NCBI GenBank assembly: GCA_038851035.1
Contig: JAWCLH010000013.1
Span: forward strand, 10,970 to 74,969
From: Thermoplasmata archaeon
GTDB lineage: Archaea > Thermoplasmatota > DTKX01 > VGTL01
Length of the DNA stretch: 64,000 bases
Reading direction: 5' to 3'
Shown: one piece after another, positions 9,138 through 53,711 of the stretch
How positions within the stretch are numbered: position 1 is the first letter of the stretch
Layout of the letters: the number at the start of each line of letters is the position of its first letter
Notes under the pieces: model-generated
What the model was told of the DNA's origin: nothing
What the model saw: the letters and a program-made list of their open reading frames with translations, nothing else
Databases searched by the model: none
Made by a program: the position numbers and the translations under genes

Positions 9138-9159
9138 TCCCTCTTCCCCTCCCGCCCCC

Positions 9160-10080
9160 TCACATCTCCAGCTGAATCTCCACGACCGCTATCCCGAGCT
9201 CCAGTTCCCTCACCTTGAAGAGCGTAACGTCCACGCCGTTGGGCCTGACGTAAACCTGATAGTCCGCCCCGGTGAGGCCCGTCTCGGGCCTGCCAAGGGT
9301 TGTGTTGAAGAAGTCCGCCCACACGGAAGGGAAGGCGGTAGTGATGTTCAGCCCCAGATTCCTCCCTGCCTCCCAGTCGCCGCCGGCGTAGGAGGTCTTG
9401 TCAAATATGCTTAAGGTGCTCTTCACCCTCATGTCTCCAGAGCCCGAGCGGGTGGCGGGTACACCGGTCAGGGATATCAGGGTGACGCTCGCGCTCAGGT
9501 TCCCGTCGGGCTCCCTGCGCAGGTCGAAGTGCGGCGAGGCCTTCATCACCGCTCTCCCGCCCTGCTCGACGATTATCGCTCCGTTCTCGTAGTGGTAGCT
9601 CTGATCTGGATAGTACATGTTCTGGGGCTGAAAGCCCATCCTCCCTCTCGTCAGACCGAACGTCTCGTTCGGGTCTGTGGCGCTTCCCAGCCTGTACTCC
9701 CCGTCTTCTGGGCTTAGGGAGAGGCTCCCCACGGTCCGGGCGAGGCCGAAGACCGGACCGCCCTCGTCCCCGAGCGTGACCCTGTTGGTCAGTGTCGAGC
9801 TCCTGCCCGCGAGAATCTGGAGATCTATATTCTCCTTGAGCTGAATCATCTGGGACTGAATTCTCTTCATCTGGCGCGCCTCGGCGTCCTTGGTCCATAT
9901 CGGAACGTATATTGCCATGAACATCGAGAGCGCTCCTGCGGCCACGAGGAGTATCAGTAGGGTCACCACGACGCCCGAGGCGCCCCGCCTCTCGCGCCTC
10001 CAGCGGTATCTGAAGGGCCTCTTTGGCGATTCGACGCGCCCGGCGCCCTCGCCTCTCCGAGATGGACGGGGGTGCCTCAT
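9160..10080 (-). CDS. minor-pilin-like secreted protein, paralog 2
   Basis: RRG|ASGVVVTLLILLVAAGALSMFMAIYVPIW N-terminal anchor; homologous to the flanking paralogs; ATGA overlap with upstream paralog 3. Confidence 0.6.
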   Translation of the reverse strand: MRHPRPSRRGEGAGRVESPKRPFRYRWRRERRGASGVVVTLLILLVAAGALSMFMAIYVPIWTKDAEARQMKRIQSQMIQLKENIDLQILAGRSSTLTNRVTLGDEGGPVFGLARTVGSLSLSPEDGEYRLGSATDPNETFGLTRGRMGFQPQNMYYPDQSYHYENGAIIVEQGGRAVMKASPHFDLRREPDGNLSASVTLISLTGVPATRSGSGDMRVKSTLSIFDKTSYAGGDWEAGRNLGLNITTAFPSVWADFFNTTLGRPETGLTGADYQVYVRPNGVDVTLFKVRELELGIAVVEIQLEM

Positions 10081-10979
10081 CTGCTCACCTTCACCTCCAC
10101 GACCGCGAACCTGATGGTCAGGGAGACAATGCCCCTTGCATCCATTCTGAAACCCTCCGGGGTCTGGCTGAGAGACACCTCAGAGCCGGTCAGGTTGGCG
10201 GCCGCGGCCTGCTCCTGAATCGATGCGTTGAGCCACCTGAGCCATCCGTCCGCGTGCCTGGTTGTGGCGTTTAAGGTCACGTTCCTTTCTCCGGGGAAGG
10301 GAATCAGGGTCTCTTCATAATGCAGAACGCGCGTCTCCACGCCCGCGCTCCCGGCCCCCGTCACGGAGACCCCCTCGCCGAAAAGGGCGTATAGGGGTAT
10401 GGTGAGCGTCAGGCTGCCCCAGCGGTCCCTCTTGAACTCTGGCGCCGGGCCCTCCCTGACTGTGGAGTGGCCCTCCTGATGCACCAGCACAGCTCCTCCC
10501 TCGTAGACATACTCTTGCTGCGGGTGGTACATGTTCCGAGAGCGGAAAATCAAGGACCCGCGCGAGAGCGCGAAGAGCTCGTCTGGGCTGTCGGTGTCGC
10601 AGACCTCGAACAGGCTCGCGTTGGCGTCAAAGGATAGCGTCCCGCTAGAAGGCTCGCCCTGAATTCCGAGGAAGGACGTGGTGGTGCCAGAGCTGAGTGC
10701 GATATGGAAGTATAGGCTGCCCGCGGTCTCTCCCTGCGCGAGCTGGTCCTCGACGCCGTCGCGTAGGGCGAAAAACTGGTTCGCAACGCGGCTCATATGG
10801 GCCGCCTCCGCGTCCTTCGACCAGACGGGAACGTAGTACAGAGCCACGGCCGTCAGGATGGTTGTGATAATGATGACGAAGAGTACCGCCGTCACCGCGC
10901 CCGCGACGCCGCTCCGCCGCCCCTGCCACCGTCTCCACGTGCCAGTCGACCTGCGCCTCTTAGTCCTCATCCTTACCAT
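10077..10979 (-). CDS. minor-pilin-like secreted protein, paralog 3
   Basis: RRSGVAGAVTAVLFVIIITTILTAVALYYVPVW N-terminal anchor; homologous to paralogs 1 and 2; overlaps the 3' end of giant gene 1 by 20 nt. Confidence 0.6.
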   Translation of the reverse strand: MVRMRTKRRRSTGTWRRWQGRRSGVAGAVTAVLFVIIITTILTAVALYYVPVWSKDAEAAHMSRVANQFFALRDGVEDQLAQGETAGSLYFHIALSSGTTTSFLGIQGEPSSGTLSFDANASLFEVCDTDSPDELFALSRGSLIFRSRNMYHPQQEYVYEGGAVLVHQEGHSTVREGPAPEFKRDRWGSLTLTIPLYALFGEGVSVTGAGSAGVETRVLHYEETLIPFPGERNVTLNATTRHADGWLRWLNASIQEQAAAANLTGSEVSLSQTPEGFRMDARGIVSLTIRFAVVEVKVSR

Positions 10980-13900
10980 CTCGATTAACCGTGGGGTTCT
11001 TAAACCTATTCAACTCGGTCGCGCCCGCAATGGGTGATGCGCTGGTGGGCCTCGCGCTAGGGCCAGCGCCCCCTCCGTTGGGTCCGGTGCGCCCGTCCCC
11101 TCCCTCTTCGGCAGGCGCCGCGCTCTCTCCAGAACCGCGAATGGAGCCACCGTCCTCGGGCATACCGGTGGCCGCGGGGGCGAGGCCGTCCCCACCGCTC
11201 TCCGGTGCCCCCCCAGCGCCGCGTCCCTGCCCGGTCGTGGTGTTTCCGATTACAGTGACGTCGTCAATGAATATGCCGCCGAAGCCCGCGCCGAGGTCGT
11301 GGTAGTGGAGGGCTAGGTCGTTGCGCGTGACCACCCTGAACTTCAGCAGTATCACGGAGCCCGCCCAGCCTGAGAGGTCACAGTTGAGTCTGGTCAGGGT
11401 GCGGCTGTCGACCCAGTTGTCGCGGATGCCCACGCCGGTGTAGCTCGTCCCGTCGGGCCCCGCGGCCTCGGTGCCCGAGACGTTCCAAGCGGAGCGCGCG
11501 CCCATGTTTAGCTGCCTCCAGCTCACCCCGTTATCGCTCGAGACCTCGACCCTGAAGCCGTCTGGTGGCCTGCCCTCGGCGAACGGGATGTTGAAACGGA
11601 GCTTTGCCGCAAGCCGCGCATCGCGCGCACGGGTGAGGTCAATTGGTATCGTGACCAGAGAGTTGTCTATTCCCCCCTTCAGCGCGTCCATCCCAGGCTG
11701 GGGGTTGTGGTTCCACCAGGCATGCGTCCCGCTGAAGGCGAAAGTGCCGTCAGCATAGTCATCGCCGTAGGTCCGACCGACTTCGACGAGCTCCCACTGG
11801 TCCGTCGTCTGGCCAGTGACCGAAACCGAGTCAGAGCGCCGGACCTTCACCTCGACGTCGTCTATGACCCAACCGTATCCCGTGCCGCCGTCGCAGAATA
11901 TGTAGAGGAATCTCACCCTGACGAATTCATTGCCGACGAAAGGCGTCAGGTCCGCTTCCACGTAATCCCAGCTGAACCTGCCGGCCCCGCTGACGCCATT
12001 CCAGCACCACCTCATGTCGTTCCCAAAGTCGTCCTTCAGATGCGGCGTGCCCCACTCGGAGAGCTTCAGGTTGCTCGGGTAGGGCTGGGTGGGGGCGACG
12101 TATCTGTAGGAGAAGGGGCCGTTGGCGGTGGGGGCCGTCCCGACCATTATCACGCCGCCATTGCTCCCGACCTTCAGGTTGTACTTGTGCCAGAAGGTCA
12201 GCCGCGCGCTCGACGCGCCCTTCAGGCTGAAGGTGGCGGTGGTGAGCCATTTGTCGGAGGGCGTTTCGTCGCCGTCGTTCCAGAAGGGCTGGTCGCCCGG
12301 CTTCTGCGGGGGCGGGACCGGGGTGAGGGCCGTGATCAGAATCTCGTCTATTGACCAGCCGTCGTCGAGGTCGTTGTCGTTGTCCGACTTGAACCTGAAC
12401 CTTATTTTCATCTGGTCCGTGAGGGTGACTGCCCCTCCCTTCGAAATATCGAGCGTTATATTGACCCAGCTCGTGATGTGGGAGTTGTTCGTCCACAACT
12501 GCGTCCAGGTGGCGCCGTTGTCGTTGCTCACCTCTATGTAGGATCTGTCGTCGTTGTCGTCGACGTCGTGCCTGAGCCAGAGGAAGAGCGTCGGGGCGCT
12601 GTGGCCGGTCAGGTTCAGGGCCGGTGTGATCAGACTGTCGTCCTCCTGCTTGTCGTAGTAGTTCGAGCCGCCCGATTTGTAGCACCTGTAGGAGTTGCTC
12701 CCGGCGTACTTGAAGAAGGTATCGTTCTGCCAGACGCCGTCCCCGCCGAGGTTCGTCTTCGTCCACCCGGACAGCGCTCCCTCGAAGCCCTCCTGCAGGA
12801 GCACCACGAGGCCCCTCCCCTCATCCCCTCCGCCCCCCTCGCCTCCGGCGCCCCTCGAGAGCCAGCTTGGCTCGCCAGTCAGTAGGACGTCGTCTATTGA
12901 CCAGCCCTCCGCTGTCTCAGCCACGTCTGCCCACATCCTAAAAGCGATTTTCATCTGGGATGTTGGCTGGATGACGTTAACATCCAGGTTTGAGACCATT
13001 GTACCAATGGCATTCCTTGGATTTCCATAATATCCCAACCATAAATTATTTGCCCAGCTTCTGACACCATACCATGTGAGGCCATTGTCGTTGCTAATGA
13101 AGACGTAGCCAAGGTCAGCGTTCCAGGATGATTCCCCGCCCCAGTAATAGGTGCCCCGGAATACCGCGGGCCTGTGCCAGAAGCTCAGCCTGAGGTTCAC
13201 GTAGCCCGAGGCGTCAATGGTGGGCGACACGAGCCAGTCGTCGTCGTTGTTCCCGTACCTGCCGGTGGCGGTGTCGTAGCAGCGCCACGCGGATAGGCCA
13301 CTGTTCCGGAAGTCGCCGGTCACGTACCTCCACGTGCTCCCCGCGGGGCCGTTGTTGACGACGCTCCAGCCTCCCGCGCCCATCTCCATATTGTCGTAGA
13401 AGAGCACCACCCGTTCCCCCGCCCCACCGGGGTTCTCCGACGCCCCAGCTCCGCCCCTACCCAGTGTCTGGGCCATCTCTTCGATTTGCTTGGATATGTT
13501 TGCGAATACCCACTCCAGCTGCTCCGCGTTGGGCGCGAAGTAGTACCATCCCCCGCCCCCGCCGGTCAGATTGGCCTGCGCCGCGAGGGCTATCATGTCC
13601 GGCTGCGAGGTTCCGACGACGTCCGCACCGTAGCCGATGACGAATATCGGGACCGGCGCGGTCGTGACGGTGGCGAAGGCCGTTGCTCTGCCCGCCGGTA
13701 CACTTGGGGAATCTGAGTTGCTCTGTCCGTCTGTGAGAATCACCATACATCTTATCCTGTTAGCCGCACCATAGTCCCTGATATAAGTGAAACTAGTTGT
13801 AACAGCGTTCCAGAACGGAGTGCCACCCCCGATTCTCATCTTTGCAATGGCATCATGGAGCGCGGACTTATTACTGGTCAAGGGCTGATCTAATTGGGTG

Positions 13901-16900
13901 TAGTAGGGAATCAACGGGGGATTTGGATAGCTGTTGTACGGTCTGTAGGTCGAGAACTCCGCCACCGCGCCCCTGTCCTGCGGCCAGAGCTTGTTCACGA
14001 ACTGCATCATCGCGGTCTTAGCCCCCTCAATCCTCGCGACCGCGTCCCAGGCCATCGAGCCGGTGACATCGCAGGTCAGTATGACGTCAACCGGTGTCCT
14101 CCTCTGGGCCTTTGGCTCGTGCATGTAGTAGGCGCTGTCGCGGCTATGGAACTGGGATGTTATATTGGGCAGGCTCATATTGTCTGTAGTGTTGCGCCAC
14201 CCATTGAATTCGGACCACTCGGCCACTATGTCGGTGTAGACGTCGCCGGCGTCTATGTACTCGAGCGCCGTTTCTCCATTAAGGCGCACAATGGTCGACT
14301 CGTGCGTCCACTTGTCCGCCCCCTCCTCCATGTCGTCGTAGAAGAAGTAGCACTGGATAGTAAGGGAGGCGACGTTGTTGAACTTGAAGACCTCGCTCAG
14401 GATGCCGTCGGGGTCGACCGAGACCGATATTGTGCGGCTGCCCGCGAATATCGGTGTCCAGATGATCTCAGCCACTATCATCGAGCTCCTCTCGACGCTC
14501 ACGCTGACGGAGTTGATGACCGTGCTCCCGTCCGAGAACCGCACGACGGCGTCGCCCCGGGTCCCGCCGGGGTTCCAGATGCGCGCCTTCAGCATGTAGG
14601 ACTCGCCCATCATGGGCTTCATCTCCCTGAGAGGCTGGAGGGTTGTGTGGAATAGGTCGAGGTGGGTCACCCTGAGCTCGGTCCTTGCGTCGTACATGTT
14701 GAACCATCGAAGCACCATGTAGGCGAGCTCGGAGAGGTACTGGTTGTTTCCTTCGTAGGAGATGAAGGACGGGTCCCAGGCGGTGAAGACCGTCCTGAAG
14801 CTGAAGGTGGTGTTCTCGTACCGAATTCCGTTGAACGGTCTAGAGAGGATGATGTCGTCCACGGCGCCCTCGCCCTCATTCATCACAACCTCGAACCCGT
14901 CGACCTGCCTGATTGTCCTGCCGCCCAGCCCGCTCCCCTCCCTGAGGTCCCTCTGCAGGTCGCGGGTCACGGTGTGCCACCTTCCATCGGCGGTGCCGGC
15001 GCCAAGCCCGTGGTGCACGGGCCCTGCGCCCAAGAGGTCCGTGTCGCTGTTTGTGTAGGTCAGGGCGATGTGGGTGCCCAGCGTGTCGGTCACGTGCCAG
15101 ACGAATGTGTAGTTGATGTCGAACCTGAAGCTCCAGCTCGCAGTCAGCCTCTCCCTCTCGTTCCAAGGCAGGTCGTTCGGGTTCTGGTCGCTGCCGAAGG
15201 CGAAGTCGCCGATAATGAAGTATGTGTCCTGCGCGCTCGCCCCTGTCCTGGCGAGGCGAATCACGCTCGAGCCCCGCTGAAAATCAAAAACATTGTTTAT
15301 AGAGGCTGAGGTTAGTGGCGGCACCACCCTCGCCGCCCACCCCTCCGTGTCGCCGTCCTCTGCGTCCTCAAGAAAGACCTCGTTCGGAGAGTCCGGGGAG
15401 GGCATCGGGGACTGGTAGGTCACTCCCCGGCCGTCGATATAGGGCAGCAGCAGTCTCCCCTTGTCGGCGGAGGTCGGCTGGGCTGGGTAGCGGACTCCGT
15501 GGGCTATTGGGTCGAGGTACGCGCCCTCTATCATGCCCGGCGTCCTCGCGCTGCCCGGGTCCACGACGCTCCCGATGCGCAAGTAATCCCTGTAGAACGG
15601 TTCCGCGCCGCCGGCGTAGTTCCCGTCAGGAATCGCGCGCGGGCCAAGGAGCCAGAGATACCTGCCGTCCCCTCTTCCAAGGAAGGAGGCGAGGCTCGTC
15701 CTGTCCGTGGCGGTGAGAGCGTTCGCCTGCTCCCCGGCGACCCATATTAAGGCGTTGTAAAGCGACATCTTTGCCGGGTCCGGGCCGTCTTCGCCTACAT
15801 TCACCACGTGCAGGTCGTACTGATACCCCAGCTCGTCAAGGGCGCGGGTCACATTGGCGGTGGAGTTGTAGGAGCTCCCCCCGTTGTTGGCGCTCCCGTC
15901 GTCGTCTATAACGAGCGTGCCGTATCTCACGTATAGGAACTCACGGTTCATGCTGGCCGAGACTTTGTTGTTGTTCTCGTTTATCTCTGATATGTAGTCG
16001 TAGGGGTCCACCTTTCCTGTTATCGTATGGGCCCCGATTCTATCCGCGGTCCAGACCATCGAAATTTTTATGAAGCCGCCCCCGCCCGGGACCCTGAGGC
16101 TGGCGTTGGTCGTGTCCTGGGGAATCCATATTTCCGAGGTCGGGGGGTTGAATGTGGTCAGGGAGCCGTTCAGCTCTATCATGACCGACTTCGGAGCGAA
16201 GGTCGCGCCGTCGATGTAGAACGCGACCTGCAGCTGGGGCCGGCTGACGTCGAGGGGCTCGTCGCTCAGGCCGTTGTTGCGGAGGTAGATGGTTATGTTC
16301 ACATCCTCCATGAACGCCGGCGCGCTCTTGTCGAACTGCTGGTCGGAGACCGCCAGGTCCCTGCCCCAGCTCGCTAGACAGCCGAACCAGTTGAGCATCT
16401 CGTATGTAATCATCGCCCTTTCGTTGGCCTCGGCGACCCGAGAGAGCTCGAAGCCGAAGAAGGCGGTCTGGAACGTGTTGGCTCCGGGTGTGCCATTAGT
16501 CGTTGCATTGAATAGGAGCCCGAGAGCCCTGTAGGGGTCCCCGGCCTCCGTGAAGGCGGGAACCGCTTTGCCCGAGAGGGGCTCCATGAAGTCCGCCCTG
16601 TCTGGAAGTCCGGAGGGAAAAGGCTTGGCCACGACGAAGCTCCTGCCGCTCAGAATTCCATTGCCGAGAATCTGTTGGGGCGTGTAGCGGTCGTAGAATG
16701 TGGTCGGCGTCAGTGGCGAGACCTTCATATAATTATTGAGGAACGGGTCGCCGCGCCCCAGACTGCTCAGGACGTCCTGACCTATCAGCCACAGCTTGCC
16801 CCCGTTGTTTAAAAATGTGGCCAGGTTGCTCTTGTCGTTTGAGGTTAGGGTCCCCACGCTCTCGTAGCCCGTGAGCCATATCACGAGGTCGTAGTCCCTG

Positions 16901-24023: not shown

Positions 24024-27000
24024 TCCATCTCACCTCCCCTAGGGCGGACCAGAGCCGGGGTCGCGGGCACAGCGACCAGCCCCAAGGGCCCGAGCATCAT
24101 GCCCCGCAGGCCCGCGCCCTCCTCTCCCGATGCCGGGTCAGGGCCGGAGCTCTCGACCGGGCGGCTATCGGCCCCCTCGTCTCCATAACAGACCTTCCCC
24201 CCCGCCCCAACCTCCTCCTCAGCCTCCGCGCCGGAATGGCAAGCGCTCGTGACTGACCTCTCCACGGGTCCGGCGGCCCTCCCGCCCGTGGTCGTGTTGC
24301 CAACAACCTTGATATCGTCAATATAGACTCCTCCGAAGCCCGCGAGCGCGCTATGGTAATGGTCGGCGATGTCGGTCCTTGTGACCACCCTGAAGCGCAG
24401 AAGTATGACCGAACCTGCCCAGCCTGAGAGGTCGCAGTTCAGCCTCGACATCGTGCCGCTGGCGACCCAGTTACCGCCGAGGTCCACGCCCGTCGCGCTC
24501 GTCCCGTCCGGACCCGCGGCTTCTGTCCCGGAGACCTTCCAGCCCGAGCGGACGCCGCGGTTCAGGGCGCGCCAGGTGATCCCATTGTCGCTCGAGACCT
24601 CAACCCTCAGGCCGTCGGGTGGCCTGCCGTCAAGTGAGTTGATGTTGAACTTCAGCCTCGCGTCTAGCCGGGCGTCGAGGGCGTTCGTCAGGTCGATGGG
24701 AATTGTAGTCAGGCTGTTGTCTATGCCAGCCGCGAGATAGTCAATGCCGGGTGAAGGGCTGTGGCAGAGCCAGGCGCGCTCGCCGCTGTAGGCATCGGCG
24801 ATGTCCCCACCCCCGCCAAGAGCATCGCCCTTGCGCACCAGCTCCCACTGGTCCGGTACCGACGCGGAAACTGGCACGGCATTGGCGCGCTCCACCCTGA
24901 CCTCGATATCGTCTATCGCCCACCCCATTCCCGTCCCTCCAGTGCAGTAAAAATAAGCGAAGCGAATTCGTACAAACTGGTTTCCTATGAAAGGCGTGAG
25001 GTCAGCCTCGACGTAATCCCACGTGAATCTGCCCGAGCCGCTCACGCCATTCCAGCACCAGCGGATGTCGTTTCCGAACCCGTCTTTTAGGTGCGGTGTG
25101 CCCCACTGCGCAATCTGGAGGTTACCGGTGTAGGGCTGGGTGGGCGTGATGTAGCGGTAGGTATATGGGCCGCTCTCCGAGGCAGCGGTACCGACCATCA
25201 GGACCCCCCCGTTCGCCCCAGCTTTCAGATCGTACTTGTGCCAGAAGGTCAGTTTGGCCGAGGAGACGCCCGCTAGGCTGAACGTCTTGGTGGTCAGGTT
25301 CCTGTCGCGCGGGGTCTCGTCCCCGTTCATCCAGTATCGAATTCCCTCGCCAGCCAGAGGGACGTCGGAGGTGACCAGGACCTCGTCCACGACCCAGCCG
25401 GTGGCCACGCTGGAGCCGTCCGAAGTGAACTGGAACCTTAGCACCATCGACGACGTCGGTGTCACCGCGCCGCCCGCGGTCAGGTCGATGTAGCACTCGT
25501 ACTGCCAGTTGTTGGAGTCTTTGTTCGTGCTCCAGACCTGCGTCCAACTCGTCCCTCCGTTGTTGCTCACGTATACCCTGCACCAGTCGCCATTGTTCCC
25601 AAGGTCAGGACAAGACCAGAACGCCAGCCGCGGGTTCTGGCGGCCCGAGAGGTCGAAGACGGGCGATATGAGGCTGTTGTTGTCGTTGTTGTCGTAGTTG
25701 CCCGTGCCGGTGTTGAATGAGCGGTAGGCGAAGGAGCCGTTGTGCTTGATGCCGCTGTGGCGGACCCACTGCGAGCCCGCAGCTCCTCCGTTGACCGTGG
25801 TCCATACCGGAGTGGCGTTCTCGAAACTGTCGTAGAAGACCGTGACCTGCCCCCTCTCCAAGGCGCCCCCCTCGGGCGTGGAGCGGCCGAGGGTCTGGGC
25901 GAGCTGCTGAATCACTTGTGCTATTTGAGAGTATATCTGGAGAAGCTGGTCGCTCGTTGGGGCGTAGTAGTAGCTCCCGCCCTCTGACGCATCGGCGGCG
26001 TCCTGCAGATTGGCGGTGTTGACGTCCCCGCCAAGGCCGATTGTGAAGAGGGGCCCGTGCATCGTGGCGATGAGCGCAAGGGTGTAGTCCCTAGTGTACG
26101 GCGGGTTGTCGTAATTGAACTGCCCGTCTGTGAGAAATACCACGGCCCTCATCGCCCCCGGCCTCGAGTTCTGGATGGTGTAGTTGGTGCCCTGGGACAT
26201 CGCGGTCCAGCCCGCGGTCCATCCGCCCGCCGACAGCTCCTTGATGGTGTTGATGCAGGCGCTCTTGTTGAAGGTGAAGCCCAGGTCCATCGTCACCCCG
26301 CTCGAGAAGGACCATACCGATATTCTGTCTATTGACTCAAGCTGCGTTATGAAGAACATCGCGGCGTTCTTGGCGTCCTGAATCTTCTGGCCGCCCATCG
26401 AGCCCGAGCGGTCGATGATGATGGTGCAGTCCACAGGCCTCCTGATGTCCTGCCTCGACTCGTGCATGTAGAAGGCCCTCGGCCAGCTCCTATACACAGA
26501 GGTTATGTTGGGCAGGCTCGCGTTGTCCGTGGTATTGTACCAGCCGTCCATCTCCTGCCAGCCCTGTATTATATTCGTGTTCGCCACGCCCGGGTCGAGG
26601 TATTCGAGAGCCGACTCGCCGTTTATCCGCAGAACCGTCGCTTCGTGCCTCCAGTTCTTCGTCCCGCTCTCCAGGTCGTCGTAGAAGAAGTAGCAGTCGA
26701 GGCCGACTCCCGCCACATTGTTGAACTTCATCGTCTCGCTCACCGCGTTGTCTGGGTCAACGGTTGCGCCTATGACCCTGCTGCCTGCGAAGAGAGGCCT
26801 CCAGACGATCTCGGCCATCGCCCTCCCGTTGGCCTCGACCGACACCGTGACCGAGTCGATGACTGTGGTCCCGTCGGTGAAGCGAACGACTGCATCGCCC
26901 CTCGTTCCCCCTAGGTTCCAGACCATCGCCTTGAGGACGTAGGATTCGCCTAGCATCGGCTTCATCTCCCTCAGCGGGACCATGCCCGAGTAGTAGAGGT

Positions 27001-30000
27001 CCATGGACGTGACCCTGAGCTCCGTCCGGCTCTCGTAGAAGTGGAACCAGCGCATCACTAGGTAGGTCAGCTCTGAGAGATAGTTGTCGTTTCCATCGTA
27101 CGATATGAATGAGGCGTCCCAGGCGGTCCAGACGCTCCTGAAGTTGTGGGTTGCATTGTCATGCCTAACCGAGTTGAATGGCCGGCAGAGCGAGATTCCG
27201 TCCACCCTCCCCTCGCCCTCGCCAATCCATACCTCGAACCCGTCCACGCTCTTGATTCCGAGCCCCATGTTGCCGGTACCGTGCCTCAGGTCCTCCGTCA
27301 GGTCTCTGGTGACGGAGTGCCAGGAACCGTCCATCGTCCAGCTTCCGAGTCCGAAGACCGGGTTGGGGCCGGGGATGTTGGCGTCCGAGGTGGAGTAGAA
27401 CAGCGTCCGATGAGCGTTGGTGGTGTCTGTCACGTGCCATCCAAAGCTCGCCTCAACTTGGAAGGAGAAGCTCCAGCGCGCTGTTAGTCGGCTGCGCTCG
27501 TCCCAGAAAAGGTCGTTCGGGTTCTGGTTGTTCGTGGCGCTGAAGTCGCCGATAATGAAGACGGTGCTTTGGACAGACGCACCGGTCCTATTGAGCAGGA
27601 TGACCCTAGAGCCCCTCGAGGTGTCCTGAACGTTATAGATGCTAGCGGTCGTGCCCGGCGGAACCACCCTAGCGAACCAGCGCGCCGTGGACCCGTCCTC
27701 CGCGTCGCAGAGGTTTCTCTCGCTCGATGCCGATGCGAGGGGTGACTGGAAGAGAATTCCGTGGCCGTCGATGTACGGCACCAGGAGCCCGCCCTTGTCC
27801 GTGAATGTGGGCTGGGCGGGGTAGGAGATTCCATGGGTCACTGGGTCCATATAGACCCCCTCAATCGTGGAGGGCGTGTGGCTGGCCGGGTCGGAGACCA
27901 ACGCCACCCTCAAGAAGTCCCTACAGAACGGGTCGGAGCCGCTACTGTAGTCCCCGGGCAGAACCGCCTTCTGGCCGATGAGCCAAAGGCCCCGGCCGTC
28001 CCCCTTCTTCAGGAAATCCTGCAAATTGCTCCGGTCATTCGCCGTCAGGGCGTCCGGGCTCTCACCGGCGCACCAGATAATCGCATTGTACTGGCTCATC
28101 TTGTTCAGGTCTGGGCCGTCCGCGCCAGTTGGGACGACGCAAACATCGAAATCGTAGCCCAGCGCATTGACCGCACGGCTGACATTTTGTGTGGCGTTGT
28201 ATAGCGTTCCACCGTTGTTGGCGCTACCATCGTCGTCCACTAGGAGCGTTCCGTACCTGACGAAAATCACCTCATTTGCAACGGCGCTAGCGACCTTATT
28301 ATTGAGCTCGTTTATCTCTTCGATATAGTCGTAGGGGTCGACCTTGACCGTAACCGTGTGGAGCCCCACCTGGTCGGCCACCCAGACCATCGACACCTTC
28401 AGGTAGCCGCCCCTGCCCGGGACCACGAGCGAGGGGTGGGGTGTGTTCTGAGGAATCCAGAGCTCCGAAGTTGCGAGGTCGAACTCCCAGAGCTGGGTGC
28501 TATTTTCAACCGTGACGCGCGCGGGGTCGAAGGCCTTTCCGTCGATATAGAATCCGAGTTGGAGAATGGGGTTGAGGAATGAGGGCGGCTCGTCGCTCAG
28601 GCCGTTGTTGCGGACGAGGACCGTGATGTTGACCTGGTCCATGAATGTGGGCGTGGTGATGTTGAACTCCTGCTCTGATATCGAGAGGTCACGGCCCCAG
28701 CGCGCGGAGCAGTTGAACCACTCGAGCATCGTGTAGGTCAGGATGGAGCGCTCGCTGGGGCGCTTCATACGAGTCAGCTCGAATGAGAAGAAAGCGGAGG
28801 TGTAGGTCTCGACCCCGGGGGTCATGTTCGTGGTTGCGTTGAAGAGAATTCCGACGGGGCGGTTGGGCGCCACCGCTTCAACTAGAGCAGAGGCTGCGAA
28901 CGGCCTTGGCTCGACGAAGTCGCCCTTATTCAGGAGGCCCGGCGGGTAGGGGGTGGAGATGTTGAAGGAGGCGCCTGGTAGAATTCCGGTCCCAACCACC
29001 GGGTCTGGAGTGCCGGCGTCTAGGTAGGATGGGAGGGTTGCGATGGGGTCTACGTTCAGGATGCTGACCAAAAACGCGTTGGATAGGCCGAGGTCGCTCA
29101 GAATTCCCTGACCGATTAGCCAGAGCTTCCCGTGGCCGTTGATGAGATACTTTATCAGCTCCATCTGGTCATTGGGCGTGAGGGTCGTGGTGTCTTCGAA
29201 GCCCGTCATCCATATCACTAGGTCGAAATCCCGCATCGGGTGCTCCCCGGAATCGTATCTCGGTCCATCGCCACCGGCTACGACGTGGGTCGTGTAGGTC
29301 GCACCCACGCTCTCCAGAGCGGCGCTCATGGGCGTCACCACGTCCCTCACGCTCCCCTCCGCGGCGCGGTCGTCGTCGACGAGTAGAATCGTCGGCATTA
29401 CCTCCAGCTCCCTAGACGCCTCCCCGCCCGTCCCGTTGGGCTCGGTGGCGTTGACGATTATCGTGTGGAGGCCCCCGGAGCCGGTCTTCCAGAACGCAGT
29501 TGATATCGTCTCGCCGCCGACGGGAATGCCGACGCCGGTGAGCTCACCTATCAGGCGGGAGTAGCTGCCGTCGTAGAAGCGCACCGTGGCGTAGGCGGGC
29601 ACGCCGCCCTGGTTCACAATCTTCGAGCTGATAATAACCGTTGAGCCGTGGACGGGGTGCTCGTCAGAGAACTCGATCGACTTGACCACGAGATAGGGCC
29701 TGGTGGGGCTGGTGGCGATGACCGGGTAGCCCACGCGGTATTGAACGACGGCGTTGTTGTTCGAGAAACGGGACTCGTTGTGGAACGGGATGATTTTGAC
29801 GGTGAGGGAGTGCATGCCCCAGCTTCCGTTCTGAATTCGGTAGCTGGCGGAAACGCGGGTTGAGTTCCCGGCTCCGAGCCAGGGGATTGTGATGTTGGCG
29901 AAGTCGATAGAGAGGCGGTCTAGGCTTGAGTAGTCGCTCATCCTCACCCGCACGCCCGGGACTCCAGAGCCGCCGTAGTTGTGGATTGTGGCGTTGATGA

Positions 30001-30583
30001 CGAGCGTCTCGTTGGTCAGGGGGGTGTTCAGGTTCTCGTCCACTGGGGCCCCGTGCCTCAAAATCTCTATGTCCCCAGGACCGAGTCCTACGTCTGGCAG
30101 TAGGGCAGATATGGCCCCTCCTTGGAGAATTCTGTCGAATATGATGGCCGGGGCTTTTATATCAACTATCTGGAGCCGGAGGGTGTCGTCAGGATCTGCG
30201 GTGAATGGGTGGGACCAGCTCTCGCCCGTCTCCAATCTGCCGTCGGATGGGTGGCCGTCGCTGACGCTCAGGGAGCTCGAGAGGGTGTCATTGAGGAAAA
30301 TATTGAACCGGGTGCTGGAGTTGTCGAGAGGGTCGCCTCCGAGGTGCTTGACGAGGATCTCAGCGCCGTCGTAGGTTGCCTCGAGCGAGGCCATCGTCTT
30401 TTCCGGCGGCTGCTCCACAGTGCCCATCTGGAGGGCGAGGGCGGATATCATGACCACTGCGATGCTGACGAGGAGGATATCGCCCACTATCTCAGACACA
30501 CCCGCCGCTTCTCGGTTGAGCGCCGGTCTTGCCGAACGTACCGCGCGCAAGTCATCCCCTCCAACCATAGCGCTATCAGTCAT
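24020..30583 (-). CDS. giant (2187 aa) type-IV-pilin-like adhesin with VWA domain (paralog A, first gene of operon)
   Basis: N-terminus REAAGVSEIVGDILLVSIAVVMISALALQM (class III signal). VWA MIDAS motif VDCTIIIDRSGSMGGQ. CARDB/MAM-like repeats. C-terminal ...VYIDDIKVVGNTTTG followed by an acidic G/A-rich tail that includes a hydrophobic stretch MMLGPLGLVAVPATPALV. Confidence 0.8.
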   Translation of the reverse strand: MTDSAMVGGDDLRAVRSARPALNREAAGVSEIVGDILLVSIAVVMISALALQMGTVEQPPEKTMASLEATYDGAEILVKHLGGDPLDNSSTRFNIFLNDTLSSSLSVSDGHPSDGRLETGESWSHPFTADPDDTLRLQIVDIKAPAIIFDRILQGGAISALLPDVGLGPGDIEILRHGAPVDENLNTPLTNETLVINATIHNYGGSGVPGVRVRMSDYSSLDRLSIDFANITIPWLGAGNSTRVSASYRIQNGSWGMHSLTVKIIPFHNESRFSNNNAVVQYRVGYPVIATSPTRPYLVVKSIEFSDEHPVHGSTVIISSKIVNQGGVPAYATVRFYDGSYSRLIGELTGVGIPVGGETISTAFWKTGSGGLHTIIVNATEPNGTGGEASRELEVMPTILLVDDDRAAEGSVRDVVTPMSAALESVGATYTTHVVAGGDGPRYDSGEHPMRDFDLVIWMTGFEDTTTLTPNDQMELIKYLINGHGKLWLIGQGILSDLGLSNAFLVSILNVDPIATLPSYLDAGTPDPVVGTGILPGASFNISTPYPPGLLNKGDFVEPRPFAASALVEAVAPNRPVGILFNATTNMTPGVETYTSAFFSFELTRMKRPSERSILTYTMLEWFNCSARWGRDLSISEQEFNITTPTFMDQVNITVLVRNNGLSDEPPSFLNPILQLGFYIDGKAFDPARVTVENSTQLWEFDLATSELWIPQNTPHPSLVVPGRGGYLKVSMVWVADQVGLHTVTVKVDPYDYIEEINELNNKVASAVANEVIFVRYGTLLVDDDGSANNGGTLYNATQNVSRAVNALGYDFDVCVVPTGADGPDLNKMSQYNAIIWCAGESPDALTANDRSNLQDFLKKGDGRGLWLIGQKAVLPGDYSSGSDPFCRDFLRVALVSDPASHTPSTIEGVYMDPVTHGISYPAQPTFTDKGGLLVPYIDGHGILFQSPLASASSERNLCDAEDGSTARWFARVVPPGTTASIYNVQDTSRGSRVILLNRTGASVQSTVFIIGDFSATNNQNPNDLFWDERSRLTARWSFSFQVEASFGWHVTDTTNAHRTLFYSTSDANIPGPNPVFGLGSWTMDGSWHSVTRDLTEDLRHGTGNMGLGIKSVDGFEVWIGEGEGRVDGISLCRPFNSVRHDNATHNFRSVWTAWDASFISYDGNDNYLSELTYLVMRWFHFYESRTELRVTSMDLYYSGMVPLREMKPMLGESYVLKAMVWNLGGTRGDAVVRFTDGTTVIDSVTVSVEANGRAMAEIVWRPLFAGSRVIGATVDPDNAVSETMKFNNVAGVGLDCYFFYDDLESGTKNWRHEATVLRINGESALEYLDPGVANTNIIQGWQEMDGWYNTTDNASLPNITSVYRSWPRAFYMHESRQDIRRPVDCTIIIDRSGSMGGQKIQDAKNAAMFFITQLESIDRISVWSFSSGVTMDLGFTFNKSACINTIKELSAGGWTAGWTAMSQGTNYTIQNSRPGAMRAVVFLTDGQFNYDNPPYTRDYTLALIATMHGPLFTIGLGGDVNTANLQDAADASEGGSYYYAPTSDQLLQIYSQIAQVIQQLAQTLGRSTPEGGALERGQVTVFYDSFENATPVWTTVNGGAAGSQWVRHSGIKHNGSFAYRSFNTGTGNYDNNDNNSLISPVFDLSGRQNPRLAFWSCPDLGNNGDWCRVYVSNNGGTSWTQVWSTNKDSNNWQYECYIDLTAGGAVTPTSSMVLRFQFTSDGSSVATGWVVDEVLVTSDVPLAGEGIRYWMNGDETPRDRNLTTKTFSLAGVSSAKLTFWHKYDLKAGANGGVLMVGTAASESGPYTYRYITPTQPYTGNLQIAQWGTPHLKDGFGNDIRWCWNGVSGSGRFTWDYVEADLTPFIGNQFVRIRFAYFYCTGGTGMGWAIDDIEVRVERANAVPVSASVPDQWELVRKGDALGGGGDIADAYSGERAWLCHSPSPGIDYLAAGIDNSLTTIPIDLTNALDARLDARLKFNINSLDGRPPDGLRVEVSSDNGITWRALNRGVRSGWKVSGTEAAGPDGTSATGVDLGGNWVASGTMSRLNCDLSGWAGSVILLRFRVVTRTDIADHYHSALAGFGGVYIDDIKVVGNTTTGGRAAGPVERSVTSACHSGAEAEEEVGAGGKVCYGDEGADSRPVESSGPDPASGEEGAGLRGMMLGPLGLVAVPATPALVRPRGGEME

Positions 30584-38640: not shown

Positions 38641-38737
38641 ATAACCGCTGCCCGGCTATTTTAGGCTTCGCTCCTTCCACCCCATTGTCCCTAGAGCCCT
38701 CCGAAACAACCTTTTATCCGCTTGCCGTTGCCGAGGC

Positions 38738-40429: not shown

Positions 40430-40720
40430 TCCGGCGCTCGCGCACTCGAAGAAGGTAGTGGCGAGCTCGTCGGTAATGGCCTCCATTATAGCCCATTGCC
40501 GTCTCGCCGGTGCCCCTTAAACCCTAGACAATTAAATTGTAATCACGAATTATTCTGGTAGCGAATCTGGTTCACCGGGTCGAGGCAGTGCCCTTGGCCG
40601 CGGGGATGGAGAGCAGGAGCGGCCCGGCAGCCCAAAATGCAGAGTAAGACCCACGCCCATCGGCATCAAATTGCCATGCCGCGACATTTGCTCACCCTCT
40701 CCACGAATCGATGAGAACCG

Positions 40721-41308: not shown

Positions 41309-41533
41309 CCGCCCCCGGGTTTTGCCCCCCGGGACAACTGCAAGTCCAGCTCTCCTAGACCGATTTCCGGAGCGCGGATGGTCAGCGATGAAAGCACAGA
41401 CCCGTGCCCCGACAATCGGGAATTCTTCATAGATAACTCGATAACGATGTATAATGAATTATTAAAACCTTTTGAATCGGCACGACACACCTGCTTGCCC
41501 TAATGGTAATCGGATATCTACCCTGCCGGCGAT

Positions 41534-42589: not shown

Positions 42590-42592
42590 GTA

Positions 42593-49656: not shown

Positions 49657-53711
<4,055 letters not shown>

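What the first reader, a model, noticed from the sequence alone, without database searches (positions are those of the whole stretch)
10960..30583. Giant genes are recent tandem paralogs with conserved domain order and a conserved C-terminal G-N-T-T-T-G motif
Corresponding segments are near-identical, e.g. C-termini GWAGSVILLKFRVVTRNDLALHYHDLGAGFGGIFIDDVTVIGNTTTG, GWAGSVIHLRFRVVTRADTINHYESVTGWGGLYIDDVTVFGNSTTG and GWAGSVILLRFRVVTRTDIADHYHSALAGFGGVYIDDIKVVGNTTTG. Central parts differ in length (1924 vs 2430 aa). Each ends with (V/F)GN(T/S)TTG followed by a divergent acidic G/A/P-rich tail. The motif may mark a proteolytic or glycosylation (N-T-T sequon) processing point. In paralog A the tail contains an extra hydrophobic segment (MMLGPLGLVAVPATPALV-RPRGG) that could act as a C-terminal anchor. 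Long near-identical DNA repeats make the locus prone to recombination or domain shuffling (antigenic or adhesive variation).
Basis: seen in the sequence. Interest (0 to 1): 0.7.

Follow-up and report, generated by a model that had tools for sequence, protein, structure and literature searches.

The report
Ancient triplet of giant archaeal pilin-like adhesins
Three huge neighbouring genes of an uncultured Thermoplasmata archaeon are old (not recent) copies of one another. They most likely encode pilin-anchored surface adhesins, and the shared "GNTTTG" motif is the end of their last folded domain, just before a floppy tail.

Summary
The three genes are real: A 24020-30583, B 18249-24023 and C 10960-18252, all on the minus strand. 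They are collinear paralogs and each carries GN(T/S)TTG followed by a Gly/Ala/Pro-rich acidic tail.

They are not recent or near-identical. Protein identity is 38-53% and DNA identity 65-70%. The longest DNA repeat is 278 nt at 73-76% identity. Each paralog has its own orthologs at 76-77% identity in other Thermoplasmatota MAGs, in the same order. That order is a divergent HTH-NACHT-TPR regulator, then A, B, C, then three small DUF7289-like genes.

Each giant has:
- an archaeal type IV pilin N-terminus (class III signal peptide);
- CARDB domains and two alpha/beta domains;
- a VWA domain with an intact MIDAS motif;
- several MAM-like/choice-of-anchor-J jelly rolls.

The motif is the end of the last strand of the terminal jelly roll. 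Distant homologs stop there. Other lineages add a linker plus a true transmembrane anchor. This clade keeps a disordered linker only. The motif's N-T-T is one of six fully conserved N-glycosylation sequons.

The ends of tails A and B contain the Shine-Dalgarno site (GGAGGTGA) of the next gene.

Between near-identical strains, sharply bounded old-allele tracts replace parts of the VWA and jelly-roll modules. This is allelic recombination, not exchange between paralogs.

Best reading: giant modular pilin-like adhesins, a new variant of a known kind.

The parts
24020..30583 (-). Giant gene A (2187 aa; NCBI MEM2869875.1, annotated 'CARDB domain-containing protein')
   Evidence: ORF. Pfam: Pilin_N, CARDB, VWA, InhA-like MAM. 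NCBIfam: choice-of-anchor J. Exact match in NCBI MAG 'Thermoplasmata archaeon'.
18249..24023 (-). Giant gene B (1924 aa; MEM2869874.1)
   Evidence: ORF. Pfam: Pilin_N, CARDB, VWA, InhA-like MAM. The start ATG overlaps A's stop codon (ATGA).
10960..18252 (-). Giant gene C (2430 aa; MEM2869873.1, identical to P0003)
   Evidence: ORF. Pfam: Pilin_N, CARDB, VWA, Reelin subrepeat B. NCBIfam: choice-of-anchor J, 69 bits. 100% identical to P0003.
30296..30502 (-). A: archaeal type IV pilin N-terminal domain. Putative class III signal-peptide cleavage at AAG|VSEIVGD, followed by a hydrophobic helix.
   Evidence: Pfam PF07790, 40.8 bits against a cut-off of 25.2. Strongest hydrophobic window of the whole protein, KD19 = 2.53 at residue 32. 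Coordinates verified.
23760..23969 (-). B: pilin N-terminal domain (ERG|VSEVLGD...)
   Evidence: PF07790, 26.3 bits against 25.2. KD19 = 2.58 at residue 28.
17965..18162 (-). C: pilin N-terminal domain (RRG|AAEVIGD...)
   Evidence: PF07790, 28.3 bits against 25.2. KD19 = 2.34 at residue 33.
27704..29401 (-). A residues 395-960: alpha/beta 'LVDDD' domain, then a CARDB domain, then a second alpha/beta 'VDDD' domain. The arrangement is conserved in B and C.
   Evidence: AF2 model with mean pLDDT 88.6. Foldseek hits: OST48 lumenal domain, GH3 alpha/beta sandwich, PF1109 CARDB domain. V8, D9, D10, D389 and D391 are invariant in a 50-sequence alignment.
25928..26428 (-). A: VWA domain with complete MIDAS (DRSGS...T...D)
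   Evidence: PF00092, E = 3e-15. PDB sequence hits are VWA proteins only. MIDAS residues aligned.
19905..20492 (-). B: VWA domain with a long insertion and MIDAS DTSNS...T...D. It almost coincides with a strain-variable tract.
   Evidence: PF00092, 24.1 bits against 23.8. MIDAS alignment. Window versus L068 is 60-75% identical here, against a 96-100% background.
13618..14088 (-). C: VWA domain with MIDAS variant DVTGS...T...D
   Evidence: PF00092, 23.8 bits, equal to the cut-off. MIDAS alignment.
24284..24895 (-). A: terminal MAM-like (InhA-MAM / choice-of-anchor-J type) jelly-roll domain
   Evidence: AF2 model: residues 1-210 of the fragment at pLDDT about 90, with last strand E196-208 = ...GVYIDDIKVVGNT. 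Foldseek hits: InhA2 peptidase, Eph ligand-binding domains, reelin repeats, neuropilin and meprin MAM domains.
18471..19061 (-). B: terminal MAM-like domain
   Evidence: PF20773, E = 9.9e-8. 60% identical to A over this region.
11230..11826 (-). C: terminal MAM-like domain
   Evidence: Collinear with A at 68-76% identity per 50-column bin.
24284..24301 (-). A: GNTTTG motif. It marks the end of the last beta-strand and contains a conserved N-X-T sequon.
   Evidence: Translation verified. Conserved in 30 of 30 clade proteins. Sequon present in 27 of 27.
18471..18488 (-). B: GNSTTG motif
   Evidence: Translation verified.
11230..11247 (-). C: GNTTTG motif
   Evidence: Translation verified.
24023..24283 (-). 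A: 87-aa disordered G/A/E/P-rich tail. It includes the weak hydrophobic patch GMMLGPLGLVAVPATPALV (24047-24103).
   Evidence: pLDDT below 60 from fragment residue 212 onward. Composition and KD19 = 1.59. The tail sequence is unalignable with the 78% ortholog P0002.
18252..18470 (-). B: 73-aa disordered tail
   Evidence: Composition; maximum KD19 = 0.28.
10963..11229 (-). C: 89-aa disordered tail
   Evidence: Composition; maximum KD19 = 0.03.
24030..24037 (-). Shine-Dalgarno GGAGGTGA for gene B, inside the end of A's tail (encodes ...GGE...), 6 nt before B's ATG
18259..18266 (-). Shine-Dalgarno GGAGGTGA for gene C, inside the end of B's tail (encodes ...GGD...), 6 nt before C's ATG
10077..10979 (-). 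Small pilin-like gene S1 (300 aa). It overlaps the end of C by 20 nt.
   Evidence: ORF. DUF7289 at 22.6 bits, below the cut-off. Paralog of S3, E = 1e-42. Basic leader, RRSG|VAGAVTAV..., hydrophobic helix, then YVPVW.
9160..10080 (-). Small pilin-like gene S2 (306 aa)
8124..9137 (-). Small pilin-like gene S3 (337 aa; DUF7289 above the Pfam cut-off)
   Evidence: PF23960, 36.2 bits against 27..
30661..33228 (+). Divergently transcribed HTH + NACHT/AAA_16 + TPR (STAND, MalT/AfsR-like) regulator. Its position is conserved in L001, L003 and L068.
   Evidence: Pfam. NCBIfam. Synteny. 64% identical to the L001 counterpart.
26052..26201 (-). Strain-variable tract in A, inside the VWA domain
   Evidence: 72.7% DNA identity to sibling strain L068, against a 96-100% background. 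Clustered amino-acid differences at 1488-1502.
19905..20504 (-). Strain-variable tract in B, covering the VWA domain
   Evidence: 60-75% DNA identity. dN 0.26 with saturated dS, against background dN 0.016 and dS 0.157.
13614..13913 (-). Strain-variable tract 1 in C (second half of the VWA domain)
   Evidence: 74-81% DNA identity.
12879..13163 (-). Strain-variable tract 2 in C (C-terminal two-thirds of the first choice-of-anchor-J domain, aa 1697-1790)
   Evidence: 58-63% DNA identity. The sibling allele is 53% identical to the window, 68.6% to the distant ortholog P0005, and only 30-42% to paralogous domains.

Best explanation
The locus is a conserved six-gene operon (8124-30583, minus strand) of an uncultured Thermoplasmata archaeon. 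It encodes three giant and three small proteins that all begin like archaeal type IV pilins: a short basic leader, a Gly at the presumed prepilin-peptidase site, and a hydrophobic helix.

Shown:
- The three giants are ancient paralogs kept as a fixed A-B-C set.
- Each is a string of modules: pilin N-domain, CARDB domains, two alpha/beta domains, a VWA domain with an intact metal-binding (MIDAS) motif, and three to five MAM-like jelly rolls.
- GN(T/S)TTG is the last strand and exit of the terminal jelly roll. It contains a conserved N-glycosylation sequon.
- The motif is followed in this clade by a fast-evolving disordered tail. The 3' ends of tails A and B double as the ribosome-binding site of the next, translationally coupled gene.

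Inferred:
- The N-terminal helix holds the proteins in the membrane or in a short pilin-type fibre, possibly built with the three small pilin-like proteins.
- The VWA and jelly-roll modules are displayed as glycosylated adhesins that bind ligands.
- Binding specificity differs between strains because old alleles of the VWA and jelly-roll modules are swapped in by homologous recombination.
For: Paralogy and age:
- Full-length collinear alignment at 38-53% protein identity and 65-70% DNA identity.
- Three orthogroups in the NJ tree.
- One-to-one orthologs at 76-77% identity in L001.
- The same gene order in L001, L003, L004 and L068.

Pilin nature:
- PF07790 is above its cut-off in all three giants.
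- The only strong hydrophobic segment in each giant is N-terminal.
- The small genes have a basic leader, RRG|V/A, a helix and an invariant YVPxW. S3 passes the DUF7289 cut-off.
- The only PDB matches of the small-protein profile are pilins, but they are not significant (E = 0.28 and 0.42).

Adhesin-like modules:
- Pfam and NCBIfam domain hits.
- MIDAS residues are intact.
- AF2 plus Foldseek identify the terminal domain as a MAM/Eph-LBD/InhA-type jelly roll.

Motif as a domain edge:
- Strand E196-208 ends at ...VVGNT, and pLDDT collapses after it.
- 49 family members end within 30 residues of that strand, typically ...YGETIFG*.

Glycosylation:
- Sequons are 1.7-1.9 times the shuffle expectation.
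- Six sequons are conserved in 27 of 27 proteins, including GN-T-T.

Translational coupling:
- ATGA overlaps and GGAGGTGA 6 nt upstream of the B and C start codons.
- GG[DE] near the C-terminus in most clade members.

Strain mosaicism:
-.
Against: - No pilus-assembly ATPase, platform protein (PilB/PilC, FlaI/FlaJ type) or prepilin peptidase was found among the ORFs of the 64-kb window that were scanned, nor in the flanks of related loci. Filament assembly is therefore unsupported.
- Lineages of the same family carry a C-terminal TM anchor, which fits poorly with extrusion in a long pilus.
- S1 and S2 are below the DUF7289 cut-off, and the small proteins show no significant similarity to any solved pilin.
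- No expression, processing, glycosylation or binding data exist. All sequences come from metagenome-assembled genomes.
- The function of the tail is unexplained.
Confidence: 0.7

Rival explanations
1. The three genes are recent tandem duplicates whose long near-identical DNA repeats make the locus a hotspot for unequal recombination, domain shuffling and copy-number variation.
For: The genes are adjacent, on the same strand, collinear and homologous throughout. Strain-level variation does exist inside them.
Against: - DNA identity is 65-70%. The longest repeat is 278 nt at 73-76% identity.
- Each paralog has separate orthologs in several MAGs.
- Orthologs are 76-77% identical, against 38-53% for paralogs.
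- Three other strain-level assemblies keep three genes of the same lengths.
- The variable tracts resemble orthologous alleles (up to 68.6%), not paralogous domains (30-42%).
Confidence: 0.03
2. GN(T/S)TTG-(G/Q)-G-R is a maturation site. The tail is a C-terminal propeptide, or the remnant of a membrane-anchor segment. It would be cut off after the conserved Arg, or shielded by an N-glycan on the Asn, so that the mature protein ends where tail-less homologs end.
For: - Tail-less homologs stop 5-9 residues after the last strand.
- Both tailed lineages share an Arg 7-9 residues after the strand's Gly: GNTTTGGR and GESLEGTR.
- The tail sequence is free to drift, while its presence and length (72-136 aa) are kept in 30 of 30 proteins.
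- The sequon is 100% conserved.
- An S8 subtilase gene lies 4 kb away at 34317-35405.
Against: - There is no direct evidence of cleavage.
- The Arg could simply cap the domain.
- No subtilase gene was called within the 10 kb sequenced upstream of the cassette in L001.
- No known sorting-signal model matches.
- This reading is compatible with the main explanation rather than an alternative to it.
Confidence: 0.2
3. The proteins are not pilus components. The pilin-like N-terminus serves only as a membrane anchor or export signal, as in the Sulfolobus bindosome sugar-binding proteins. The six proteins would together form a glycoprotein coat or envelope layer of a wall-less Thermoplasmata cell.
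For: - No assembly ATPase or platform gene was found in the locus or its relatives.
- Relatives carry a second, C-terminal TM anchor.
- Conserved sequons are dense, and a glycosylation gene cluster sits nearby at 37645-46029.
- Makarova et al. 2016 found no T4P ATPase in Methanomassiliicoccus, while the family occurs in Methanomassiliicoccales MAGs.
Against: - Pilins are often encoded far from their assembly machinery (PMC12448462 and PMC4858521).
- VWA and MAM modules are typical of adhesins rather than lattice proteins.
- The abundance and expression of these proteins are unknown.
Confidence: 0.3
4. The giants are secreted enzymes (a peptidase like InhA/M6, or a glycoside hydrolase) rather than adhesins.
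For: The MAM-like domain is the type found in InhA M6 peptidases and in M36 peptidases. The alpha/beta domains give Foldseek hits to the GH3 non-catalytic sandwich.
Against: - No peptidase or glycosidase catalytic domain was detected by Pfam, NCBIfam or PDB sequence search.
- The M36 model hits score 14-17 bits against cut-offs of 1500-1700 and cover only the accessory domain.
- The GH3 hits have a TM-score of about 0.13.
Confidence: 0.05

Closest known systems
Modular type IV pilins, e.g. Streptococcus sanguinis PilB (pilin module + vWA module) (PMC8179133)
   Same: An N-terminal pilin module is followed by grafted functional modules. These include a vWA domain with a complete MIDAS motif, so the expected role is adhesion.
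   Different: - These are archaeal (PF07790 type), not bacterial IPR012902 pilins.
- They are 1924-2430 aa with about 12 modules. The largest protein in the bacterial survey was 860 aa.
- They occur as a fixed triplet with three small pilin-like partners.
- No pilus machinery is encoded in the locus.
- Incorporation into a filament is untested.
PilY1-type, VWA-containing T4P tip adhesins and the 'large adhesin-like proteins' found in archaeal type IV filament loci (Makarova et al. 2016, PMC4858521; bioRxiv 10.64898/2026.04.22.720090)
   Same: Large secreted multi-domain proteins associated with pilin genes and interpreted as adhesins or minor pilins.
   Different: - The described archaeal examples sit in loci that also encode the ATPase and platform protein, and they carry other domains (DUF2341, Ig-fold hooks).
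- Here the giants themselves carry the pilin N-terminus. The cassette stands alone, next to a STAND regulator.
- Neither paper describes this family. The full-text term searches in both found no mention of it.
Sulfolobus bindosome substrate-binding proteins (class III signal peptide proteins that are not classical pilus subunits)
   Same: A class III signal peptide is used to display a functional extracellular protein (background).
   Different: The bindosome proteins are about 500-aa solute-binding proteins linked to ABC transport. The proteins here are giant and built from VWA, MAM and CARDB modules.
MAM / choice-of-anchor J domains of InhA (M6) and M36 peptidases, meprins, Eph receptors and reelin
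   Same: The terminal domain has this jelly-roll fold and ends with the typical G-W/F-x-I-D-D-V strand.
   Different: No peptidase domain is attached. The domains are used here as three to five tandem modules at the C-terminus of a pilin-like protein.
C-terminal TM-anchored archaeal surface glycoproteins and archaeosortase substrates (PGF-CTERM and similar)
   Same: Related lineages of this family end in linker + TM helix + Arg/Lys cluster.
   Different: In the window's clade the TM helix is missing (0 of 30 tails reach KD19 >= 1.8). No PGF/PEF-type signature sits next to the TM helix in the relatives, and no CTERM model hits.

Membership tests
Archaeal type IV pilin-like proteins (class III signal peptide; Pfam PF07790 Pilin_N) | N-terminal Pilin_N domain scoring above the Pfam gathering cut-off | tested here: met
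   A 40.8 bits, B 26.3 bits and C 28.3 bits, against a cut-off of 25.2.
Archaeal type IV pilin-like proteins (class III signal peptide; Pfam PF07790 Pilin_N) | Short charged leader, Gly at -1, small or hydrophobic residue at +1, then a hydrophobic helix of about 20 aa | tested here: met
   ...REAAG|VSEIVGDILLVSIAVVMISALA (A)...DERG|VSEVLGDILLV... (B)...DRRG|AAEVIGDLLLV... (C). KD19 is 2.3-2.6 only at this position. A has Ala rather than Lys/Arg at -2.
Archaeal type IV pilin-like proteins (class III signal peptide; Pfam PF07790 Pilin_N) | Cleavage by a prepilin peptidase (PibD/FlaK/EppA) | not testable with these tools
   No peptidase A24 gene was found among the window ORFs that were scanned. 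The rest of the genome is not available.
Type IV pilus / type IV filament system | Cognate secretion ATPase and platform protein (PilB/PilC or FlaI/FlaJ type) encoded with the pilins | tested here: not met
   None was found among the 43 window ORFs scanned or in the called genes of L001, L003 and L068. Encoding in trans remains possible.
Modular pilins with a vWA adhesion module | vWA domain with the MIDAS motif DxSxS...T...D | tested here: met
   A DRSGS/T/D, B DTSNS/T/D, C DVTGS/T/D (Ser to Thr). VWA Pfam hits.
Modular pilins with a vWA adhesion module | Presentation on a pilus and ligand binding | not testable with these tools
   Requires experiments.
MAM-like / choice-of-anchor J domain (NF038128, PF20773) | HMM score above the cut-off and a jelly-roll fold | tested here: met
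   NF038128: C 69.3 bits and A 50.3 bits (cut-off 30); B 28.5 bits, just below. The AF2 model of A's last domain matches InhA2, neuropilin and meprin MAM domains and Eph ligand-binding domains.
Archaeosortase/exosortase-type C-terminal sorting signal | Signature motif directly followed by a TM helix and a basic cluster at the extreme C-terminus | tested here: not met
   No CTERM model hit. Tail KD19 maxima are 1.59 (A), 0.28 (B) and 0.03 (C). 0 of 30 clade tails reach 1.8.
Recently duplicated, recombination-prone tandem gene array (contingency-type locus) | Long (over 100 nt) near-identical DNA repeats between copies | tested here: not met
   The longest repeats are 278, 222 and 197 nt at 66-76% identity. 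BLASTN identity is 65-70%.
Recently duplicated, recombination-prone tandem gene array (contingency-type locus) | Copy-number or chimeric variants among close strains | tested here: not met
   Sibling assemblies carry A, B and C at 2176-2177, 1924 and 2430 aa (one copy is partial at a contig end). Only four assemblies were available.
N-glycosylated archaeal surface protein | Occupied N-X-S/T sequons | tested here: inconclusive
   Sequons number 27-37 per protein, 1.7-1.9 times the shuffle mean (z about 3.3-4.1). Six are conserved in 27 of 27 proteins. Occupancy cannot be tested.
DUF7289 (PF23960) small archaeal proteins | HMM score above the cut-off | tested here: inconclusive
   S3 scores 36.2 bits (cut-off 27). 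S1 (22.6) and S2 (22.2) fall below, but both are clear paralogs of S3 (E = 1e-42 and 1e-65).

The most novel reading that the evidence does not exclude
The conserved '3 giant + 3 small' cassette may build a dedicated surface organelle not yet described in wall-less Thermoplasmata. In this reading, three small pilin-like proteins form a short pilin-type stalk or priming complex. That stalk presents three different 200-260 kDa modular pilins, whose VWA and jelly-roll heads are exchanged between strains as old allelic cassettes. The exchange would tune partner, host or particle recognition. The GNTTTG-G-R boundary with its vestigial anchor tail would serve as a maturation site.
Probability: 0.15. 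Interest if true: 0.65.

Novelty: new variant of a known kind. Interest (0 to 1): 0.45.

Why it matters
If the reading is right, these are among the largest pilin-type proteins known. They are two to three times longer than the largest modular pilin in a bacterial survey (860 aa).

They would also be a lineage-wide feature of uncultured Thermoplasmatota. Tandem giants of this family were found in dozens of MAGs, which makes them candidates for how these wall-less archaea attach to particles or partners.

The family shows three alternative C-terminal solutions: none, a linker plus TM anchor, or a linker only. It also shows old-allele mosaic tracts in the ligand-binding modules. Together these give concrete, testable handles on surface-protein evolution in archaea.

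For the scan itself, the lesson is cautionary. Conserved motifs in giant paralogs looked 'near-identical' by eye, but the copies are ancient and the locus is not an unstable repeat array.

Tried and rejected
- **Recent duplication or near-identical repeats.** Rejected by BLAST and repeat search.
- **Gene conversion between paralogs as the source of strain-variable tracts.** Rejected. The tracts match orthologous alleles at 53-69% identity but paralogous domains at only 30-42%. Both dN and dS are raised more than 10-fold in the tracts, so they are old alleles rather than new mutations.
- **DGR-type hypervariation.** Considered and set aside without a dedicated test. The tracts differ by indels and are only 58-75% identical, and no reverse transcriptase was seen in the ORFs scanned.
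- **C-terminal TM anchor in A.** Sub-threshold and not conserved.
- **Known sorting signals.** No NCBIfam CTERM hit.
- **Tail as a non-coding spacer read through by chance.** Unlikely. A random 62% GC frame has about a 5% chance of staying open for 100 codons (my calculation), yet 30 of 30 clade proteins keep a 72-136 aa tail. The tail's codon-position GC pattern is nevertheless atypical.
- **Whether the tail of this clade derives from the TM-anchored tail of other lineages.** The NJ tree of the last domain did not place the two tailed clades as sisters, so this is unresolved.
- **Homology of the small proteins to the giants' N-terminal domain or to solved pilins.** Nothing significant.
- **Exact look-up of protein B.** It failed in the look-up of encoding contigs but succeeded through cluster look-up.
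- **Literature searches for DUF7289 or for this family.** Nothing found.
- **Further paralogs elsewhere in the window.** None.

Full report
**1. What is there**

Region 10960-30583 holds three abutting minus-strand ORFs: A (24020-30583, 2187 aa), B (18249-24023, 1924 aa) and C (10960-18252, 2430 aa). Adjacent genes overlap by ATGA.

Three further same-strand ORFs follow directly: S1 (10077-10979), S2 (9160-10080) and S3 (8124-9137). An AT-rich gap and an Lrp/AsnC gene come next.

Upstream, across a 77-bp AT-rich spacer, a regulator with HTH, NACHT/AAA_16 and TPR regions is transcribed divergently (30661-33228). A Ras-like small GTPase gene follows it (33188-33739).

The window is archaeal: it carries an unsplit RpoB plus RpoA' and RpoA'' at 49657-57369. 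It matches an NCBI MAG labelled 'Thermoplasmata archaeon', where A, B and C are MEM2869875.1, MEM2869874.1 and MEM2869873.1 and are annotated only as 'CARDB domain-containing protein'.

**2. Checking the observation**

The quoted peptides, the lengths, the motif and the G/A/P-rich acidic tails are all present. The three proteins align collinearly from end to end.

The words 'near-identical' and 'recent' do not hold:
- Protein identity is 38-39% (B against A or C) and 49-53% (A against C). It peaks at 60% (BLASTP) over the C-terminal third, or 76% in the best 50-column bins.
- DNA identity in the alignable parts is 65-70%.
- The longest direct repeats in the 19.6-kb region are 278, 222 and 197 nt at 66-76% identity.
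- No further paralog lies elsewhere in the window.

**3. Age of the triplication**

A search of 5.8 billion proteins returned 58 relatives, all from Thermoplasmata/Thermoplasmatota metagenome bins where a source name is given.

In a neighbour-joining tree, A, B and C each sit in their own clade together with proteins from several other MAGs.

Locus L001 (GCA_052744455.1) carries one-to-one orthologs. The giants are 76-77% identical to their window counterparts, the small genes 73-75%, and the regulator 64%. The gene order is the same there: regulator, A, B, C, three small genes. The same order is seen in L003, L004 and L068.

The triplication therefore predates these lineages, and the set is maintained as a unit. 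The three small genes are likewise an old triplet, at 28-38% identity to one another.

**4. Domain anatomy**

- All three giants pass the Pfam cut-off for the archaeal type IV pilin N-terminal domain.
- Each has its only strong hydrophobic segment at the N-terminus, after a basic leader and a Gly.
- Next come CARDB domains, then an alpha/beta - CARDB - alpha/beta block. An AF2 model of A residues 395-960 has pLDDT 88.6. Its Foldseek hits are the OST48 lumenal domain, the GH3 alpha/beta sandwich and the PF1109 CARDB domain.
- A beta-sandwich follows that B lacks.
- A VWA domain follows whose MIDAS residues are intact in all three proteins.
- Three to five MAM-like/choice-of-anchor-J jelly rolls end the protein.
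- No catalytic domain was detected.

**5. The GN(T/S)TTG motif**

An AF2 model of A residues 1890-2187, built from a 47-sequence alignment, gives a confident jelly roll (pLDDT about 90). Its last strand is ...GVYIDDIKVVGNT. From the Gly after TTT onward the chain is predicted to be disordered. The fold matches InhA2 peptidase, neuropilin and meprin MAM domains, reelin repeats and Eph ligand-binding domains.

Across the family, the segment after this strand exists in three states:

| State | Count | Typical ending |
|---|---|---|
| (i) Protein ends within 30 residues of the last strand | 49 proteins | ...YVDDVxVYGETIFG* |
| (ii) Tail with a strong TM helix (KD19 2.05-3.06) followed by 3-6 Arg/Lys | 20 proteins | GESLEGTR, then 60-90 acidic residues, then the TM helix, e.g. 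...IILMASLIFTAAMVSLVVVRRRS* |
| (iii) Tail of 72-136 aa, none reaching KD19 1.8 | all 30 proteins of the window's clade | GN[ST][ST][ST]G[GQ](G)R, then a low-complexity tail |

Six further tailed proteins outside the window's clade have no strong helix.

The motif is therefore the ancestral C-terminal edge of the last domain, and the tail is an add-on. Both tailed states share an Arg 7-9 residues after the strand's Gly.

The Asn of the motif starts an N-X-T sequon that is present in 27 of 27 clade proteins. It is one of only six sequons with that degree of conservation. Sequons overall are 1.7-1.9-fold enriched over shuffles.

Cleavage or glycosylation at this boundary is thus plausible but untested.

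Paralog A's 'hydrophobic segment' is the best in the clade, yet it is sub-threshold (KD19 1.59, three Pro). A single L-to-Q change in the 97% ortholog lowers it to 1.22, and it is absent from the 78% ortholog. It is better read as noise or a vestige than as an anchor. Whether the clade's tail descends from the TM-anchored tail is unresolved, because the NJ tree of the last domain did not make the two tailed clades sisters.

**6. The tail and translational coupling**

The last codons of A and B contain GGAGGTGA exactly 6 nt before the next gene's ATG. The sequence is read in the tail frame as G-G-E or G-G-D. Most clade members end in ...GG[DE]xx.

This explains the one conserved feature at the extreme C-terminus as a constraint at the nucleotide level. 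Elsewhere the tails are unalignable even between 78% orthologs, and they show atypical codon-position GC. The frame nevertheless stays open in all 30 proteins.

**7. Variation between strains**

Two other assemblies are 99.9% identical to the window. A third, L068 (GCA_038894075.1), differs more.

Along the whole operon and regulator, DNA identity to L068 is 96-100% per 150-nt bin, except in sharply bounded tracts:

| Gene | Window coordinates | DNA identity to L068 | Module |
|---|---|---|---|
| A | 26052-26201 | 73% | VWA domain |
| B | 19905-20504 | 60-75% | VWA domain |
| C | 13614-13913 | 74-81% | VWA domain, second half |
| C | 12879-13163 | 58-63% | first choice-of-anchor-J domain |

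- In the background, dN is 0.011-0.017 and dS is 0.11-0.16.
- In the tracts, dN is 0.13-0.26 and dS is at least 1.6 or saturated. The tracts are therefore old alleles that were recombined in, not new mutations.
- The sibling's C tract is 53% identical to the window's tract and 68.6% identical to the distant ortholog P0005. It is only 30-42% identical to any paralogous domain. This excludes conversion between the tandem copies.
- Both allele sets were assembled independently at least twice, in NCBI MAGs and in Logan assemblies.

The proposed mechanism does not.

**8. Most likely mechanism**

What is shown is the anatomy, the conservation and the translational coupling. The rest is inferred.

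The proteins are probably exported and processed like pilins. They would be held by their N-terminal helix in the membrane or in a short pilin-type assembly, possibly with the three small pilin-like proteins. They would display glycosylated VWA and jelly-roll modules as adhesins.

The closest described concept is the 'modular pilin', such as S. sanguinis PilB with its vWA module. The largest protein in that bacterial survey was 860 aa (PMC8179133). Large adhesin-like proteins in archaeal type IV filament loci are also described (PMC4858521 and bioRxiv 10.64898/2026.04.22.720090).

The main weakness is that no assembly ATPase, platform protein or prepilin peptidase was found in the window or in the related loci examined. 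In addition, the TM-anchored relatives argue against long extruded fibres. A membrane-anchored glycoprotein coat is therefore a serious rival (PMC12448462).

**9. Verdict**

The finding is real as a description of paralogous giant genes with a conserved terminal motif. Its headline interpretation (recent, near-identical, recombination-prone) is wrong.

The locus is an uncharacterised but widespread Thermoplasmatota cassette. Tandem giants of this family were found in 64 loci from species-representative genomes. It is best filed as a new variant of modular pilin-like adhesins, and its interest is moderate.

Noticed in passing
window 26052-26201, 19905-20504, 13614-13913, 12879-13163 (compared with L068): Against a sibling strain that is otherwise 96-100% identical, sharply bounded tracts in the VWA domains of A, B and C and in C's first jelly-roll domain drop to 58-81% DNA identity. 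Both dN and dS are raised more than 10-fold there. These are old alleles swapped in by recombination.
   Followed up: yes
L006, L017, L019, L020, L028, L030-L032, L035, L037, L040, L042, L046, L059 (C-termini of the giant ORFs): In other Thermoplasmatota lineages the same family ends in GESLEGTR, then an acidic linker, a strong TM helix and an Arg/Lys cluster. Further lineages stop right after the last strand. One family therefore has three alternative C-terminal designs.
   Followed up: partly
window 24030-24037 and 18259-18266: Identical Shine-Dalgarno sequences (GGAGGTGA) lie inside the C-terminal tails of A and B, each 6 nt before the overlapping start codon of the next gene. This explains the conserved ...GG(D/E)xx protein ends.
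   Followed up: yes
window 30661-33228 (+) and 33188-33739 (+): A STAND-type regulator (HTH + NACHT/AAA_16 + TPR, MalT/AfsR-like) is followed by a Ras/Arf-like small GTPase. Both are divergent from the operon. The pair is also called in L001 and L068, and the regulator is seen at the cut end of L003.
   Followed up: partly
window 8124-10979: The three small downstream genes are themselves an ancient triplet (28-38% identity to one another), with one-to-one orthologs in L001. They share a basic leader, RRG|V/A, a hydrophobic helix and an invariant YVPxW. Only S3 passes the DUF7289 cut-off.
   Followed up: partly
window 27704-29401 (A residues 395-960): Two alpha/beta domains begin with invariant 'LVDDD' and 'VDDD' strands. 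Their best Foldseek match is the lumenal domain of the OST48 subunit of eukaryotic oligosaccharyltransferase. Their function is unknown.
   Followed up: partly
window 37645-46029: A cluster of sugar-modification and glycosyltransferase genes: GFO/IDH oxidoreductase, GT4-like, hexapeptide acyltransferase, NAD epimerase/dehydratase, DegT aminotransferase, GT1 and GT2. It could supply glycans for the sequon-rich giants.
   Followed up: no
window 34317-35405 (-): A subtilase (Peptidase_S8) gene lies 4 kb upstream of the operon. It is a conceivable processing protease, but no such gene was called within the 10 kb upstream of the cassette in L001.
   Followed up: no
L039, L041, L026, L033, L012, L025, L029, L050: In tail-less lineages the usual cassette is two giants followed by an ORF of about 1000-1046 aa, rather than three giants plus three small genes.
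   Followed up: no
literature (PMC4858521) compared with L022, L039, L041, L051, L057: Makarova et al. 2016 reported no type IV pilus ATPase in Methanomassiliicoccus genomes, yet this pilin-fronted family occurs in Methanomassiliicoccales MAGs. This hints that the proteins may not need a pilus machinery.
   Followed up: no
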